From: a virus
Lineage: Duplodnaviria > Heunggongvirae > Uroviricota > Caudoviricetes
Length of the DNA: 11,084 nucleotides
Virus record (IMG/VR): IMGVR_UViG_2537562173_000005
Reading direction: 5' to 3' (one strand)
Below, one piece after another: positions 1 through 11,084 of this stretch. The stretch's first letter is position 1. Each line of letters opens with the position of its first letter. The notes under the pieces are model-generated. The model was not told where the DNA came from. It did no database searches and was given only the letters and a program-made list of their open reading frames with translations. A program made the translations under genes and the position numbers.

Positions 1-369
1 CTTATTAATATTCTGGATAAGTTCTCCACCTGGTATGACACGAATAGCGTGACGCTGGGCGGTGTCAAAATTCCGCACCTTTTCCCCGGTGATGATCTGA
101 AACTTCAGACCGCGCAGGATTCAGACAATGGATTTTCGGCGCTTGAACAGGCGCTGCTGCGGTATATCGCCGCCGGCCNNNNNTCTGAGCCGGGTTCGTA
201 AGCTGTGCTGACTGCGGGATCAGGTAAGGCCGAACCGGTCTCTGCATCCACAACCGCCCTGTTTGAACATTTCATGGCGAATCATTCACCGGCAGCGGTG
301 CGGGGTGGCGTGTCACAGACGTCAGCAGACGGTGATGCGGACGTGAAAATGCTCATGGCCATGTCATGA
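1..369 (+). CDS. 3' end of an upstream head gene, probably the scaffold/prohead protease (lambda C/Nu3 position); interrupted by an N gap at 179-183
   Basis: Frame 1 is open from 1 to the N run, and frame 1 is open again from 202 to the TGA at 367-369, 36 nt upstream of the D start. Position immediately before D matches lambda Nu3/C. Frame continuity across the gap is unknown and I see no clear sequence match. Confidence 0.3.
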
Positions 370-3816: not shown

Positions 3817-4248
3817 ATGTTTCTGAAAACAGAACAATTTGAATATAACGGTGTGTCTGTCACGCTTTCCGAATTGTCTGCGCTGCAGCGTATCGAGCAT
3901 CTTGCCCTCCTGAAACGGCGTGCAGAACAGGCAGAATCCTGCGGCAACCTGCAGGTAAGCGTGGAAGATCTCGTCAGAACCGGCGCGTTTCTGGTGGCGA
4001 TGTCCCTGTGGCATAACCATCCACAGAAAACGCAGTCACCGTCAATGAATGAGGCCGTGATGAAGATAGAGCAGGAAGTGCTCACCACCTGGCCTGCCGA
4101 TGCCATTGCCCGGGCGGAAGACGTGGTGTTGTGCCTGTCCGGGATGATCGAAGCTGTTCGTCCGGATACTGATATTACTGAAGTGGCGAAAAATAACACG
4201 CTGACTGATGATGATTTTTCTGCGGGAAAGTCTTCGACGGCGAGCTGA
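3817..4248 (+). CDS. G: tail assembly chaperone G (zero-frame product)
   Basis: 143 aa; MFLKTE.FE.NGV.VTLSELSALQRIEHLAL.KR.AEQAES and TGAFLVAMSLWHNHPQKTQ.PSMNEAV..IEQEVLTTWP match lambda gpG. GGAGG ribosome-binding site at 3806-3810. Confidence 0.9.
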   Translation: MFLKTEQFEYNGVSVTLSELSALQRIEHLALLKRRAEQAESCGNLQVSVEDLVRTGAFLVAMSLWHNHPQKTQSPSMNEAVMKIEQEVLTTWPADAIARAEDVVLCLSGMIEAVRPDTDITEVAKNNTLTDDDFSAGKSSTAS

Positions 4249-4688
4249 ACTTTGCCCTCAGACTGGCGCGTGAGATGGGGAGACCCGACTGGCGCGCCAT
4301 GCTTGCCGGGATGACATCCACCGAATATGCCGACTGGCACCGTTTTTACCGCACGCATTATTTTCAGGATACCCAGCTGGATATGCATTTTTCCGGGCTG
4401 ACGTACGCTGTACTCAGCCTGTTTTTTTGCGATCCGGATATGCATCCCTCTGATTTCAGTCTGCTTGTCCCCCGGCATGAGGAAGAGCAGGTGGAGAGGC
4501 CGGATGAGGACAAAATGCTGATGCAGAAAGCGGCAGGACTTGCCGGAGGCGTCCGGTTCGGTGGGGACGGAGGGCGCGATATTTTATCGTCTGCGGATGT
4601 GGCGGATGTCATGGTGGATGATGCCGCATTAATGATGGCTTCAGCGGGGATTCCGGGAGGTGTGAGATATGTCCCAGCCGGTTGGTGA
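3817..4688 (+). CDS. T: tail assembly chaperone G-T fusion made by programmed -1 ribosomal frameshift at 4224-4230
   Basis: After the slippery heptamer the -1 frame reads GKVFDGELNFALRLAREMGRPDWRAMLAGM...GVRYVPAGW, matching lambda gpT (VFDGEL.FAL.LAREMGRPDWRAMLAGM.STEYADWHRFY). The T frame has no start codon or ribosome-binding site of its own until 4275. Confidence 0.8.
4224..4230 (+). other. programmed -1 frameshift slippery heptamer G GGA AAG (G to T frame)
   Basis: GGGAAAG sits near the 3' end of G, with GGA and AAG as zero-frame codons. This is the same heptamer and the same relative position as the known lambda G-T frameshift site. Confidence 0.75.
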
Positions 4689-6828
4689 TCTTGTTATTGA
4701 CCTGAGTCTGGATGCTGTCCGTTTCGATGAGCAGATGAGCCGGGTAAGGCGTCATTTTTCAGGTCTGGATACCGACGCCAGAAAAACCGCCAGTGCTGTT
4801 GAACAGGGCCTGAGCCGCCAGGCGCTGGCTGCACAAAAAGCCGGGATTTCCGTCGGGCAGTATAAAGCGGCCATGCGAACCCTGCCCGCACAGTTTACGG
4901 ATATCGCCACGCAGCTTGCCGGTGGTCAGAATCCCTGGTTGATCCTGCTGCAACAGGGCGGTCAGGTGAAGGACTCCTTCGGCGGGATGATCCCCATGTT
5001 CAGGGGGCTTGCCGGTGCGATCACCCTGCCGATGGTCGGGGTCACCTCGCTGGCGGTGGCGACAGGTGCGCTGGCGTACGCCTGGTACCAGGGCGACGCC
5101 ACGCTTTCAGAATTTAATAAAACGCTGGTCCTTTCCGGCAATCAGGCCGGACTGACTGCCGATCGTATGCTGACGCTCTCAAGAGCCGGGCAGGCAGCAG
5201 GGCTGACGTTTAACCAGGCGAGAGAGTCACTGGCAGCCCTGGTGAATGCCGGTGTGCGTGGTGGTGAACAGTTTGATGCCATCAACCAGAGTGTCGCGCG
5301 TTTTGCGTCTGCATCCGGTGTGGAGGTGGATAAAGTCGCTGAAGCCTTCGGGAAGCTGACCACTGACCCGACGTCGGGACTGATGGCGATGGCGCGCCAG
5401 TTCCGTAACGTGACGGCAGAGCAGATTGCGTATGTTGCACAGCTGCAGCGTTCCGGAGACGAGGCCGGGGCATTGCAGGCGGCGAACGATATCGCCACGA
5501 AAGGCTTTGATGAGCAGACCCGTCGCCTGAAAGAAAACATGGGAACACTGGAGACCTGGGCGGATAAAACAGGGAAGGCATTCAAATCGATGTGGGATGC
5601 CATTCTGGATATCGGTCGTCCGGAATCCTCAGCGGATATGCTCGCCAGTGCGCAGAAGGCATTTGATGAGGCGGATAAAAAATGGCAGTGGTACCAGAGC
5701 CGGAGCCAGCGCCGGGGAAAGACCTCCTCTTTTCGTGCGAACCTTCAGGGGGCATGGGATGACCGGGAAAATGCCCGTCTGGGTCTGGCAGCGGCCACGC
5801 TGCAGTCGGATATGGAAAAAGCCGGTGAACTGGCGGCAAGGGACAGGGCTGAGCGTGAGTCGTCACAGCTGAAGTATACCGGAGAGGCGCAGAAGGCGTA
5901 TGAGCGCCTGCAGACGCCGCTGGATAAATATACCGCCCGTCAGAAAGAGCTGAATAAGGCCCTGAAAGACGGAAAAATCCTGCAGGCGGATTACAACACG
6001 CTGATGGCGTCGGCAAAAAAGGATTATGAATCGACGCTGAAAAAGCCGTCAGGTGTGAAGGTGTCTGCCGGTGAGCGCCAGGAAGACCGGGCGCATGCAG
6101 CCCTGCTGGCGCTTGAAACCGAGCTCAGGACGCTGGAAAAACACAGCGGTATGAATGAGAAAATCAGCCAGCAGCGCCGGGATTTATGGGAATCTGAAAG
6201 TCAGTATGTGGTCCTGAAAGAGGCCGCCACGAAACGGCAGTTATCTGAGCAGGAAAAATCCCTGCTGGCTCATGAGAAAGAGACGCTGGAGTACAAACGC
6301 CAGCTGGCTGAGCTGGGAGACAAGATTGAACACCAGAAGCGGCTGAATGAGCTGGCACAGCAGGCGGCGCGGTTTGAACAGCAGCAAAGCGCGAAGCAGG
6401 CGGCAATCAGCGCAAAAGCCCGCGGCCTCACCGACCGTCAGGCGCAGCGGGAGTCGGAAGAGCAGCGCCTTCGTGAGGTGTACGGTGATAATCCGGCTGC
6501 GCTGGCGAAGGCCACATCGGCACTGAAGAACACCTGGTCTGCGGAGGAGCAGCTTCGTGGAAGCTGGATGGCCGGGATGAAGTCCGGCTGGGGAGAGTGG
6601 GCGGAAAGTGCGACGGACAGTTTTTCGCAGGTTAAAAGTGTGGCCACGCAGACCTTTGACGGTATTGCACAGAATATGGCGGCGATGCTGACCGGCAGCG
6701 AACAGAACTGGCGGGGATTCACCCGTTCCGTGCTGTCCATGATGACAGAAATTCTGCTTAAGCAGGCAATGGTGGGGATTGTCGGGAGTATCGGCAGCGC
6801 CATTGGCGGGGGGGGCGCCTCCGCCTGA
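4669..6828 (+). CDS. H: tail tape measure protein (lambda gpH family), N-terminal 719 aa; reading frame ends prematurely at a G homopolymer
   Basis: Long Ala/Gln/Glu-rich ORF; N-terminus PVGDLV.DLSLDA.RFDEQM.RVRRHFSG and many internal blocks match lambda gpH. It ends ...IGSAIGGGGASA* at TGA 6826-6828, directly after a G8 run. Confidence 0.9.
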   Translation: MSQPVGDLVIDLSLDAVRFDEQMSRVRRHFSGLDTDARKTASAVEQGLSRQALAAQKAGISVGQYKAAMRTLPAQFTDIATQLAGGQNPWLILLQQGGQVKDSFGGMIPMFRGLAGAITLPMVGVTSLAVATGALAYAWYQGDATLSEFNKTLVLSGNQAGLTADRMLTLSRAGQAAGLTFNQARESLAALVNAGVRGGEQFDAINQSVARFASASGVEVDKVAEAFGKLTTDPTSGLMAMARQFRNVTAEQIAYVAQLQRSGDEAGALQAANDIATKGFDEQTRRLKENMGTLETWADKTGKAFKSMWDAILDIGRPESSADMLASAQKAFDEADKKWQWYQSRSQRRGKTSSFRANLQGAWDDRENARLGLAAATLQSDMEKAGELAARDRAERESSQLKYTGEAQKAYERLQTPLDKYTARQKELNKALKDGKILQADYNTLMASAKKDYESTLKKPSGVKVSAGERQEDRAHAALLALETELRTLEKHSGMNEKISQQRRDLWESESQYVVLKEAATKRQLSEQEKSLLAHEKETLEYKRQLAELGDKIEHQKRLNELAQQAARFEQQQSAKQAAISAKARGLTDRQAQRESEEQRLREVYGDNPAALAKATSALKNTWSAEEQLRGSWMAGMKSGWGEWAESATDSFSQVKSVATQTFDGIAQNMAAMLTGSEQNWRGFTRSVLSMMTEILLKQAMVGIVGSIGSAIGGGGASA

Positions 6829-7234
6829 GGGGGGTACAGCCATTCAGGCCGCCGCGGCGAAATTCCATTTTGCAACCGGAGGATTTACGGGAACCGGCGG
6901 CAAATATGAGCCAGCGGGGATTGTTCACCGTGGTGAATTTGTCTTCACAAAGGAGGCAACCAGCCGGATTGGCGTGGGGAATCTCTATCGGCTGATGCGC
7001 GGCTATGCCACCGGTGGTTATGTCGGTACACCGGGCAGTCTGGCTGACAGCCGGTCGCAGGCGTCCGGGACGTTTGAGCAGAATAACCATGTGGTGATTA
7101 ACAACGACGGCACGAACGGGCAGATAGGTCCGGCTGCTCTGAAGGCGGTGTATGACATGGCCCGCAAGGGTGCCCGTGATGAAATTCAGACACAGATGCG
7201 TGATGGTGGACTGTTCTCCGGAGGTGGACGATGA
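6779..7234 (+). CDS. H: C-terminal part of tape measure protein H in the +1 frame (frameshifted continuation)
   Basis: From about 6830, frame 2 reads GGTAIQAAAAKFHFATGGFTGTGGKYEPAGIVHRGEFVFTKEATSRIGVGNLYRLMRGYATGGYVGTPGS...RDGGLFSGGGR, matching the lambda gpH C-terminus. The ATG at 6779 is probably not a real start. Confidence 0.8.
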   Translation: MSGVSAAPLAGGAPPPEGGTAIQAAAAKFHFATGGFTGTGGKYEPAGIVHRGEFVFTKEATSRIGVGNLYRLMRGYATGGYVGTPGSLADSRSQASGTFEQNNHVVINNDGTNGQIGPAALKAVYDMARKGARDEIQTQMRDGGLFSGGGR

Positions 7235-7560: not shown

Positions 7561-8258
7561 TGCAGGATATCCGGCAGGAAACACTGAATGAATGCACCCG
7601 TGCGGAGCAGTCGGCCAGCGTGGTGCTCTGGGAAATCGATCTGACAGAGGTCGGTGGAGAACGTTATTTTTTCTGTAATGAGCAGAACGAAAAAGGTGAG
7701 CCGGTCACCTGGCAGGGGAGGCAGTATCAGGCGTATCCCATTCAGGGGAGCGGTTTTGAACTGAATGGCAAAGGCACCAGTACGCGGCCCACGCTGGCAG
7801 TCTCTAACCTGTACGGCATGGTCACCGGTATGGTGGAAGATATGCAGAGTCTGGTCGGCGGAACGGTGGTCCGGCGTAAGGTTTACGCCCGTTTTCTGGA
7901 TGCGGTGAACTTCGTCAACGGAAACAGAGACGCCGATCCGGAGCAGGAGGTGATCAGCCGCTGGCGCATCGAGCAGTGCAGCGAACTGAGTGCGGTCAGT
8001 GCCTCCTTTGTACTGTCCACACCGACGGAAACGGATGGTGCCGTTTTTCCGGGGCGCATCATGCTGGCTAATACCTGCACCTGGACCTATCGCGGTGATG
8101 AGTGCGGTTATCACGGTCCGGCAGTCGCGGATGAATATGACCAGCCGACGTCCGATATCACGAAGGATAAATGCAGCAAATGCCTGAGCGGCTGTAAGTT
8201 TCGCAATAACGTCGGCAACTTTGGCGGCTTCCTTTCCATTAACAAACTTTCGCAGTAA
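7560..8258 (+). CDS. L: tail tip assembly protein (lambda gpL family), cysteine cluster near C-terminus
   Basis: 232 aa, same length as lambda gpL. C-terminal region contains CTWTYRGDECGY and CSKCLSGC, consistent with the cysteine-rich metal/Fe-S site described for gpL. Start overlaps the M stop by 1 nt. Confidence 0.92.
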   Translation: MQDIRQETLNECTRAEQSASVVLWEIDLTEVGGERYFFCNEQNEKGEPVTWQGRQYQAYPIQGSGFELNGKGTSTRPTLAVSNLYGMVTGMVEDMQSLVGGTVVRRKVYARFLDAVNFVNGNRDADPEQEVISRWRIEQCSELSAVSASFVLSTPTETDGAVFPGRIMLANTCTWTYRGDECGYHGPAVADEYDQPTSDITKDKCSKCLSGCKFRNNVGNFGGFLSINKLSQ

Positions 8259-10023: not shown

Positions 10024-11084
10024 ATGGGTAAAGGAAGCAGTAAGGGGCATACCCCGCGCGAAGCGAGGGACAACCTGAAGTCCACGCAGCTGCTGAGTGT
10101 GATCGATGCCATCAGCGAAGGGCCGGGTGAAGGGCCGGCCCCCCGGACCTCAACNNNNNCGGGCCGGTGAGCAGGAGCAGACACCGCCGGAGGGATTTGA
10201 ATCCTCCGGCTCCGAGACGGTGCTGGGTACGGAAGTGAAATATGACACGCCGATCACCCGGACCATCACGTCGGCAAACATCGACCGTCTGCGCTTTACC
10301 TTCGGTGTGCAGGCACTGGTGGAAACCACCTCAAAGGGGGACAGGAATCCATCGGAAGTCCGCCTGCTGGTTCAGATCNNNNNATTCTGCAGGTGCCGTC
10401 GAACTATAACCCGCAGACGCGGCAATACAGCGGTATCTGGGACGGAACGTTTAAGCCAGCATACAGCAACAACATGGCCTGGTGTCTGTGGGATATGCTG
10501 ACCCATCCGCGCTACGGCATGGGGAAACGTCTTGGTGCGGCAGATGTGGATAAATGGGCGCTGTATGTCATCGGCCAGAATTGCGACCAGTCGGTGCCGG
10601 ATGGCTTTGGTGGCACGGAGCCGCGCATCACCTGTAATGCCTACCTGACCACACAGCGCAAGGCGTGGGATGTTCTCAGTGATTTCTGCTCGGCGATGCG
10701 CTGTATGCCGGTATGGAACGGGCAGACGCTGACATTCGTGCAGGACCGACCGTCGGATAAGGTGTGGACCTATAACCGCAGTAATGTGGTGATGCCGGAT
10801 GATGGTGCGCCGTTCCGCTACAGCTTCAGCGCCCTGAAAGACCGCCATAATGCTGTTGAGGTGAACTGGATTGACCCGGATAACGGCTGGGAGACGGCGA
10901 CAGAGCTTGTGGAGGACACGCAGGCCATTGCCCGTTACGGTCGTAACGTCACGAAGATGGATGCCTTTGGCTGTACCAGCCGGGGGCAGGCACACCGCGC
11001 CGGGCTGTGGCTGATTAAAACGGAACTGCTGGAGACGCAGACCGTGGATTTCAGCGTCGGCGCAGAAGGGCTTCGCCATGTACC
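10024..11084 (+). CDS. J: tail tip / central tail fibre protein (lambda gpJ family), 5' partial, with two internal N gaps
   Basis: Starts MGKGSSKGHTPREA.DNLKSTQLLSVIDAISEGP, and later AGEQEQTPPEGFESSGSETVLGTEVKYDTPITRTITSANIDRLRFTFGVQALVETTSKGDRNPSEVRLLVQI and ILQVPSNYNPQTRQYSGIWDGTFKPAYSNNMAWCLWDMLTHPRYGMGKRLGAADVDKWALYVIGQ, all essentially identical to lambda gpJ. GGAG/GAGG ribosome-binding site upstream. The gene runs past the window end; N runs at 10155-10159 and 10379-10383 break the apparent frame. Confidence 0.92.

What the first reader, a model, noticed from the sequence alone, without database searches (positions are those of the whole stretch)
6805..6836. Tape measure gene H split by a frameshift in back-to-back G homopolymers
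The H frame reads ...IGSAIGGGGASA and hits TGA at 6826-6828, directly after a G8 run (6808-6815). From about 6830, after a G6 run (6829-6834), the +1 frame continues with GGTAIQAAAAKFHFATGG..., which is the lambda gpH C-terminus. Joined, the two pieces give about 854 aa against 853 in lambda, so a single-base indel in or beside the G tracts breaks an otherwise intact gene. This is either a homopolymer sequencing error or a genuine inactivating or phase-variable lesion; H is essential and sets tail length.
Basis: seen in the sequence. Interest (0 to 1): 0.5.

Follow-up and report, generated by a model that had tools for sequence, protein, structure and literature searches.

The report
Assembly garble splitting prophage tape-measure gene
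The break in the phage tail tape-measure gene is real in the deposited sequence, but it is almost certainly a garbled contig join in a 2011 short-read draft assembly and not a biological frameshift or a switchable G tract.

Summary
A G8 run lies at 6808-6815, an in-frame TGA at 6826-6828 and a G6 run at 6829-6834, and the lambda-H-like reading continues in the +1 frame to 7234.

The lesion is not a single-base homopolymer indel. Against lambda and prophages 99.6% identical to the window, it is a 9-nt gap, five transversions and a 1-nt insertion within 6812-6834. These are the only indels in 8.7 kb. The stop comes from a TCA-to-TGA substitution. No relative has a G run longer than 4 here.

The window is the whole record AEYT01000020.1, from the E. 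coli cloneA_i1 draft, which was made from Illumina GA IIx reads only. The record also carries three NNNNN gaps, two of them with similarly garbled, G/C-biased edges.

In at least nine other short-read drafts, contigs end at the equivalent of 6807-6809, and 407-408-nt contigs start at the next base. The patch therefore sits on a recurrent assembly breakpoint. Both halves of the patch are absent from every collection searched.

Putting the reference 37-mer back gives an 857-aa H protein that is 855/857 identical to the SF-088 prophage H protein.

Verdict: assembly or sequencing artefact (about 0.88). Interest is low.

The parts
4669..6828 (+). N-terminal 719-codon piece of the lambda-type tape-measure gene H, deposited as EHG01483.1. 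It ends at the in-frame TGA.
   Evidence: ORF list and translation. Pfam TMP_2 and Tape_meas_lam_C. Exact protein found only on AEYT01000020.1.
6807..6811 (+). Position equivalent to a recurrent contig boundary in other short-read E. coli drafts. Long contigs end at 6807-6809 and 407-408-nt contigs start at 6810/6811.
   Evidence: Partial proteins P0005, P0010, P0026 and P0028. The contig ends map to L004 10135-10137 and the contig starts to L004 10138/10139.
6812..6834 (+). Garbled patch. There is a 9-nt gap after 6811, transversions at 6813, 6819, 6825, 6827 and 6831, and one extra G within 6829-6834. The net change is -8 nt relative to every homologue.
   Evidence: Alignments with lambda, ev207, ATCC 11775 and SF-088. 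Substitution signature. Both halves of the patch are absent from all collections scanned.
6808..6815 (+). G8 run. It is created by the 9-nt gap plus a C-to-G change and is not present in any homologue.
6826..6828 (+). TGA in the H frame, standing where all homologues have the TCA (Ser) codon.
6829..6834 (+). G6 run. It comes from a GGC-to-GGG change plus one inserted G and is not present in any homologue.
6830..7234 (+). C-terminal 134 codons of H plus the stop, in the +1 frame. Deposited from 6803 as EHG01484.1. The stop overlaps the ATG of gene M, as in lambda.
   Evidence: There is no difference from the SF-088 prophage between 6835 and 7990.
179..183 (.). NNNNN scaffold gap. 1835 nt of portal and protease genes are missing relative to the SF-088 prophage, and both edges are garbled.
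10139..10159 (.). Garbled gap edge (C6 run at 10139-10144, T-to-G and A-to-C changes nearby) followed by the NNNNN gap at 10155-10159. It has the same to-G/C signature as the H patch.
10379..10383 (.). NNNNN scaffold gap inside gene J. 300 nt are missing relative to SF-088, and the edges are clean.

Best explanation
The split of gene H is an artefact of the deposited draft assembly.

The window is a scaffold from an Illumina GA IIx-only assembly of E. coli cloneA_i1. In genomes that carry several lambdoid prophages, short-read assembly graphs branch at exactly this point in H. To the left the sequence is unique to this prophage. To the right, a segment of about 407 nt forms a separate contig, which I infer is shared between H copies.

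The true sequence here is most likely the conserved, GGC-dense 37-mer CGGGGCTGTTGGTGGCGGCGCATCCGCGTCAGGCGGT. The two contig ends were bridged using low-quality or dephased reads. That produced a consensus 8 nt too short, with miscalls that copy the preceding base. Those miscalls create the G8 and G6 runs and turn TCA into TGA.

**Shown:** the source and platform, the complex nature of the lesion, its uniqueness, its coincidence with a recurrent contig boundary, and the error signature it shares with the gap edges.

**Inferred:** the exact technical step that went wrong (gap filler, manual join or dephasing), and that strain i1 really carries an intact H.
For: 1. **Source.** The window is the whole of AEYT01000020.1 (GCA_000233675.2, E. 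coli cloneA_i1). The paper describes a draft from paired-end Illumina GA IIx reads only, with 56 scaffolds and 79 contigs ordered on APEC O1. That implies about 23 intra-scaffold gaps genome-wide, and three N runs lie in this 11-kb record.
2. **Nature of the lesion.** Over 8.7 kb the window is 99.6% identical to the ATCC 11775 and SF-088 prophages. The only indels are the two in the patch, and five substitutions fall within 22 nt. The chance of that at the background substitution rate is about 1e-6.
3. **Natural alleles.** All 120 natural alleles sampled are in frame, with a spacer of 37 nt (113 contigs) or 25 nt (7 contigs). None has a G run longer than 4 at this site.
4. **Uniqueness.** Both halves of the patch are absent from genome contigs, metagenome contigs and IMG/VR. 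No complete E. coli genome (5,426) or phage record exceeds 97.2% identity across the patch. The exact 719-aa product is found on one contig only.
5. **Recurrent breakpoint.** In at least nine other drafts, contigs end at L004 10135-10137 (window 6807-6809). In four drafts, 407-408-nt contigs begin at L004 10138/10139 (window 6810/6811). The window diverges from the reference from 6812. This 451-nt region is present in a median of 2 copies per E. coli genome.
6. **Error signature.** All five patch substitutions are transversions to G or C, and four of the five copy the preceding reference base. In the background, 4/26 are transversions, 6/26 go to G/C and 5/26 copy the preceding base (Fisher p = 7e-4, 3e-3 and 0.017). 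The garbled edges of the N gaps show the same bias, plus a C6 run that is absent from the reference. Nakamura et al. [quoted passage not shown] The reference patch is 75% GC (99th percentile of 40-nt windows) and holds 5 GGC/GCC motifs (95th percentile).
7. **Repair.** Putting the reference 37-mer back gives a single 857-aa ORF that is 855/857 identical to the SF-088 H protein.
Against: - No reads were available, so the call is circumstantial.
- Dephasing explains the substitutions and the extra G. It does not by itself explain the 9-nt gap, which needs a mis-join or gap-filling step that the paper does not describe.
- The record also lacks 514 nt at 1441/1442 without any N. The prophage could therefore be genuinely degraded, and a real H lesion would not be out of place in a degraded prophage.
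- Only one isolate of clone A was sequenced, so the uniqueness of the patch does not strongly exclude a private mutation.
Confidence: 0.88

Rival explanations
1. A genuine, strain-private complex mutation (a multi-nucleotide event such as error-prone repair or template switching) has inactivated H in a decaying prophage of cloneA_i1. On this reading H is a true pseudogene.
For: The sequence as deposited carries both a nonsense codon and a frameshift. The record lacks 514 nt of the E/FI genes without an N run, which could reflect real prophage decay. Defective lambdoid prophages are common in E. coli (established knowledge).
Against: - The lesion starts within 1-4 nt of a contig boundary seen in at least nine independent assemblies. 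For a random mutation in a 2.6-kb gene that is roughly a 0.3% coincidence.
- Its substitution spectrum matches Illumina GA dephasing and the record's own gap-edge garble. It does not match the transition-rich natural differences.
- No copy of the patch or of its reverse complement lies nearby to serve as a template.
- The rest of H differs from the intact SF-088 H at 2 of 857 residues.
Confidence: 0.08
2. The G8 tract is a contingency locus. Slipped-strand mispairing changes its length and switches tape-measure (tail) production on and off.
For: G8-to-G7 or G8-to-G10 restores a single ORF of 854 or 855 aa. G runs of 8 or more are slippage-prone (established knowledge).
Against: - No homologue has the tract; the longest G run in 120 alleles is 4.
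- The 'on' form would encode a non-native APPPE segment in place of the conserved AVGGGASAS.
- The tract is found in no other record.
- Everything that supports the artefact reading also counts against this one.
Confidence: 0.03
3. Programmed +1 ribosomal frameshifting or another recoding event at GCC-TGA-G joins the two pieces, by analogy with the G-T frameshift just upstream.
For: A stop codon followed by the continuing frame at +1 superficially resembles the prfB-type arrangement. The same gene cluster does use a programmed -1 shift at G GGA AAG, 4224-4230.
Against: The site is not conserved in any of the 120 natural alleles, or in the homologues listed from the E. coli genome and phage searches, all of which are annotated or read as a single ORF. 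The P-site codon GCC cannot re-pair on CCU in the +1 frame (inference from codon-anticodon rules). No recoding of H is known (own knowledge).
Confidence: 0.01

Closest known systems
Bacteriophage lambda gpH (tail length tape measure protein, NP_040595.1, 853 aa) and its E. coli prophage homologues (e.g. WP_000082348.1, 857 aa)
   Same: The domains are the same (TMP_2, Tape_meas_lam_C). The gene order is the same, V-G-T-H-M-L-K-I-J. The DNA around the site is 92% identical to lambda, and the window is 99.6% identical to the ATCC 11775 and SF-088 prophages over 8.7 kb. The 4-nt H/M overlap is also shared.
   Different: As deposited, the gene is in two frames with an in-frame TGA. The conserved GGAVGGGASASGG linker is replaced by GGGGASA* followed by GG.
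Sequence-specific errors of the Illumina Genome Analyzer (lagging-strand dephasing after GGC motifs; Nakamura et al. 2011, PMC3141275) and garbled contig ends or joins in early short-read draft assemblies
   Same: The platform is the same, GA IIx. The context is GGC-dense. The miscalls are C-to-G and A-to-C and copy the preceding base. The patch lies at a graph-node boundary. The same signature appears next to the record's N gaps.
   Different: A 9-nt loss is not a dephasing product. It needs an additional mis-join or gap-filling step, which I infer and have not shown.
Homopolymer contingency loci (phase-variable poly-G tracts, e.g. in Neisseria or Haemophilus surface genes)
   Same: There is a G8 tract inside a coding region, and a change in its length could toggle the reading frame.
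   Different: The tract is absent from all relatives. No length variants were observed. The 'on' form is non-native. The tract is most likely not real.

Membership tests
Lambda-type tail tape measure protein (gpH) | Pfam TMP_2 (PF06791) and Tape_meas_lam_C (PF09718) domains | tested here: met
   E = 1.6e-69 and 2.8e-21, both above the curated cut-offs.
Lambda-type tail tape measure protein (gpH) | Position between the G/T chaperone genes and M-L-K-I-J in a lambdoid tail cluster | tested here: met
   The window is collinear with the annotated prophages of ATCC 11775 and SF-088 and with lambda. The G-T slippery site is present at 4224-4230.
Lambda-type tail tape measure protein (gpH) | One uninterrupted ORF of about 853-857 codons | tested here: not met
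   As deposited, the gene is split at 6826-6830. It is restored to 857 aa if the reference 37-mer is substituted.
Assembly or sequencing artefact at a contig join | The variant is confined to one low-quality record and absent from all other records | tested here: met
   The record carries N gaps and garbled gap edges.
Assembly or sequencing artefact at a contig join | Coincides with an assembly-graph breakpoint | tested here: met
   Contigs of at least nine other drafts end at the equivalent of window 6807-6809, and 407-408-nt contigs start at 6810/6811.
Assembly or sequencing artefact at a contig join | Error spectrum typical of the platform and unlike natural polymorphism | tested here: met
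   All 5 substitutions are transversions to G/C and 4 of 5 copy the preceding base, against 4/26, 6/26 and 5/26 in the background. This is the spectrum described in PMC3141275.
Assembly or sequencing artefact at a contig join | Raw reads or re-sequencing contradict the deposited consensus | not testable with these tools
   There is no access to reads or to the strain.
Phase-variable homopolymer (contingency) locus | The tract is present in relatives and varies in length | tested here: not met
   The longest G run in 120 natural alleles is 4, and every spacer length is in frame.
Phase-variable homopolymer (contingency) locus | A change in tract length alone restores the native protein | tested here: not met
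   G8-to-G7 opens the frame but gives IGGGAPPPEGGT, not the conserved sequence. G6-to-G5 leaves TGA in frame.
Programmed ribosomal frameshift site | A conserved slippery or stop context at the frame junction in homologues | tested here: not met
   No homologue has the stop or the two-frame arrangement.

The most novel reading that the evidence does not exclude
The patch is real. A private multi-nucleotide mutation in the cloneA_i1 prophage created a new, slippage-prone G8 tract inside the tape-measure gene, so the prophage's tail assembly is switched off and could in principle revert through G8-to-G7 slippage to a variant H with an altered linker.
Probability: 0.04. Interest if true: 0.3.

Novelty: not a real feature. 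Interest (0 to 1): 0.06.

Why it matters
There is little biological significance. The value is curatorial.

- EHG01483.1 and EHG01484.1 are most likely two halves of one intact tape-measure protein. They should not be counted as a pseudogene, a truncated tape-measure protein or a phase-variable locus.
- Lambdoid H genes break at one reproducible base position in short-read assemblies (the start of the GGAVGGGASASGG linker). A genome scan can use that to flag similar false frameshifts.
- If the lesion were real, it would only be one more inactivating mutation in a resident prophage.

Tried and rejected
- **Single-base homopolymer indel.** Rejected. Alignments show a 9-nt gap, 5 substitutions and 1 insertion. 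G6-to-G5 leaves TGA in frame. My first repair attempt, G8-to-G9, was the wrong direction and gave 4 stops. G8-to-G7 and G8-to-G10 do reopen the frame.
- **Natural allelic variant or mosaic patch from another lambdoid H gene.** Rejected. No allele with this spacer turned up in 120 IMG/VR contigs. Both halves gave no exact match in three collections. Both flanks belong to the same lineage.
- **Template switch from a nearby inverted or direct copy.** No second copy of the 27-mer lies on either strand of the window, even with up to 3 mismatches. I did not test shorter templates.
- **Gap-edge and junction sequences as natural alleles.** The sequences at 10130-10154 and 184-210, and the 1441/1442 junction 27-mer, are absent from IMG/VR.
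- **Locating the paralogous H copy.** I could not find it in cloneA_i1 or in a close complete genome. That the 407-nt segment is a repeat in strain i1 therefore remains an inference from other assemblies.
- **GC and GGC content as the sole cause.** The reference patch is in the top 1-5% of 40-nt windows but is not the most extreme. This is only supporting evidence.
Full report
**1. The observation**

- A G8 run lies at 6808-6815, a TGA at 6826-6828 and a G6 run at 6829-6834.
- ORF 4669-6828 encodes 719 aa ending ...IGSAIGGGGASA*.
- From 6830 the +1 frame reads GGTAIQAAAAKFHFATGG... and runs to the stop at 7232-7234.
- The N-terminal piece carries Pfam TMP_2 and Tape_meas_lam_C.
- The surrounding genes are collinear with the lambda V-G-T-H-M-L-K-I-J tail cluster.

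This is a lambda-type tape-measure gene H, and in the record it is split.

**2. What the lesion actually is**

I aligned the site with lambda, phage ev207 and the closest E. coli prophages (ATCC 11775 and SF-088). Those two prophages are 99.6% identical to the window over 8.7 kb. The window differs from all four in the same way.
- Nine nucleotides (GCTGTTGGT) are missing after 6811.
- There are five substitutions, at 6813, 6819, 6825, 6827 and 6831.
- One extra G lies within 6829-6834.
- The net change is -8 nt.

These are the only indels in the 8.7-kb block. Five substitutions within 22 nt has a chance expectation of about 1e-6 at the background rate.

The stop codon comes from a TCA-to-TGA substitution, so it is not a consequence of a frameshift. 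The G8 and G6 runs are created by the changes themselves.

Shortening G6 to G5 leaves TGA in frame. Only G8-to-G7, or G8-to-G10, opens the frame. It then encodes IGGGAPPPEGGT or IGGGGAPPPEGGT in place of the conserved IGGAVGGGASASGGT.

Replacing the patch with the reference 37-mer gives an 857-aa protein that is 855/857 identical to the SF-088 H protein.

**3. Comparison with intact homologues**

I scanned IMG/VR with the two conserved anchors and a variable gap. The spacer between the anchors is 37 nt in 113 contigs and 25 nt in 7. It is always in frame, and no G run is longer than 4. The window has 29 nt, which is out of frame.

The patch appears nowhere else.
- Both halves of it are absent from the species-representative genomes, the JGI metagenomes and IMG/VR.
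- Among 5,426 complete E. coli genomes and 50,697 phage records, nothing exceeds 97.2% identity over 451 nt spanning the site.
- The exact 719-aa product is encoded on one known contig only.

**4. Where the window comes from**

That one contig is the window itself. It is AEYT01000020.1 of GCA_000233675.2, E. coli cloneA_i1. The two H pieces are deposited as EHG01483.1 and EHG01484.1.

The paper describing the strain (PMC3203180) states that i1 is a draft from paired-end Illumina GA IIx reads. It has 56 scaffolds comprising 79 contigs, ordered on APEC O1.

The record contains three NNNNN runs, at 179-183, 10155-10159 and 10379-10383. At these places 1835, 89 and 300 nt are missing relative to SF-088. 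A further 514 nt is missing at 1441/1442 without any N.

Two of the three gaps have garbled edges.
- There is a C6 run at 10139-10144 that is absent from the reference.
- There are T-to-G and A-to-C changes nearby.
- About 25 nt at 184-208 do not align with the reference.

These edge sequences are absent from IMG/VR.

If 79 contigs in 56 scaffolds implies about 23 internal gaps, three of them fall in this 11-kb record. That would make it one of the worst-assembled parts of the genome (inference).

**5. The decisive coincidence**

The 90%-identity cluster of the 719-aa protein holds many tape-measure proteins annotated as partial, from other drafts.
- P0005 (713 aa, 9 contigs) and P0010 (714 aa) end at ...IGSAIG(G).
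- P0026 (136 aa) starts at AVGGGASASGG..., on 407-408-nt contigs.
- P0028 (141 aa) starts at SAIGGAVGG..., on a 422-nt contig.

At the DNA level, the long contigs (one of 241 kb) end at L004 10135-10137, which is window 6807-6809. The 407-408-nt contigs begin at L004 10138/10139, which is window 6810/6811. They run to 25 nt before the H stop. The window departs from the reference from 6812.

So the patch starts within a few bases of a node boundary that independent short-read assemblers hit repeatedly.

The simplest reading is that the roughly 407-nt segment is shared between paralogous prophage H genes. The region occurs in a median of 2 copies per E. coli genome, and in 1 to 4 copies in the closest listed relatives, most of them with 2 or more. 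A natural allele that differs by G/T exactly at this base exists (CGGT|GCTGTT...).

**6. The error signature**

| Set of substitutions | Transversions | New base is G/C | Copies the preceding reference base |
|---|---|---|---|
| H patch | 5/5 | 5/5 | 4/5 (5/5 within two bases) |
| Gap edges | 3/4 | 4/4 | 3/4 |
| Background (elsewhere in the window) | 4/26 | 6/26 | 5/26 |

Fisher tests for patch against background give p = 7e-4, 3e-3 and 0.017 for the three columns.

Nakamura et al. 2011 (PMC3141275) describe this behaviour on the Illumina GA.
- GGC motifs and inverted repeats trigger runs of consecutive miscalls.
- A-to-C and C-to-G miscalls are over-represented.
- The effect hinders de novo assembly.

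The reference patch is 75% GC (99th percentile of 40-nt windows). It holds five GGC/GCC motifs (95th percentile).

**7. Mechanism**

The most likely course of events is as follows. In the cloneA_i1 assembly the contig carrying the unique part of H ended at ...ATTGGCGGGG. It was joined to the following segment through poorly supported, dephased sequence. The consensus lost 8 nt and acquired G/C miscalls.

The facts in sections 2 to 6 are shown. The particular software or manual step responsible, and the true sequence in the strain, are inferred. I put this explanation at 0.88.

**8. Rival explanations**

- **A genuine private complex mutation (0.08).** This is not excluded, because no reads were available and the record has one N-free 514-nt loss. 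It requires the mutation to coincide with the assembly breakpoint and to have a sequencing-error spectrum.
- **A phase-variable G tract (0.03).** This fails the tests for that class. The tract is absent from relatives, no length variants were seen, and the 'on' product is non-native.
- **Programmed +1 recoding (0.01).** There is no conservation to support it, and the P-site codon is unsuitable.

**9. Comparison with what is known, and novelty**

The gene is an ordinary lambda-type gpH homologue. The break is best filed under draft-assembly artefacts, so this is not a real feature. Interest is 0.06.

The one practical point is that lambdoid H genes have a reproducible short-read breakpoint at the start of the GGAVGGGASASGG linker. 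This can generate false partial genes or false frameshifts.

**10. What would settle it**

Sanger or long-read sequencing of strain i1 across 6700-6950 would decide the matter. So would remapping the original reads to the deposited version and to the version with the 37-mer restored.

Noticed in passing
window 179-183, 10155-10159, 10379-10383: There are three NNNNN runs. Relative to the SF-088 prophage the record lacks 1835 nt (most of the portal and S49 protease genes), 89 nt and 300 nt (both in J) at these points. The edges of the first two gaps are garbled and G/C-biased, so these are unassembled stretches and not deletions.
   Followed up: partly
window 1441/1442: 514 nt are missing relative to SF-088, with no N run. 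The loss fuses the major capsid gene E (ORF 811-1482, 223 aa instead of about 342) to FI. The junction 27-mer is absent from IMG/VR. It could be a silent mis-join or a real deletion, and I did not resolve which.
   Followed up: partly
window 4224-4230: The lambda-type slippery heptamer G GGA AAG lies in the zero frame of G (3817-4248), with the T frame at -1. The programmed G-T frameshift of the tail assembly chaperones appears to be conserved.
   Followed up: partly
window 7991-8072: There are eight substitutions relative to SF-088 within 82 nt of gene L, and seven of them are transitions. This looks like a small natural recombination or mosaic patch. It contrasts with the all-transversion H patch.
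   Followed up: no
other drafts: L127-L130 (contig ends) and L131-L134 (407-408-nt contigs): Many unrelated E. coli short-read assemblies break contigs at the same base inside H, at the start of the GGAVGGGASASGG linker. They leave a stand-alone contig of about 407 nt that covers most of the H C-terminus. This is a recurrent source of tape-measure annotations marked as partial.
   Followed up: yes
window 6151, 6193, 6195: Outside the patch, H differs from the SF-088 H at only two residues (M495V, S509A). So apart from the patch there is no sign of pseudogene decay in H.
   Followed up: yes
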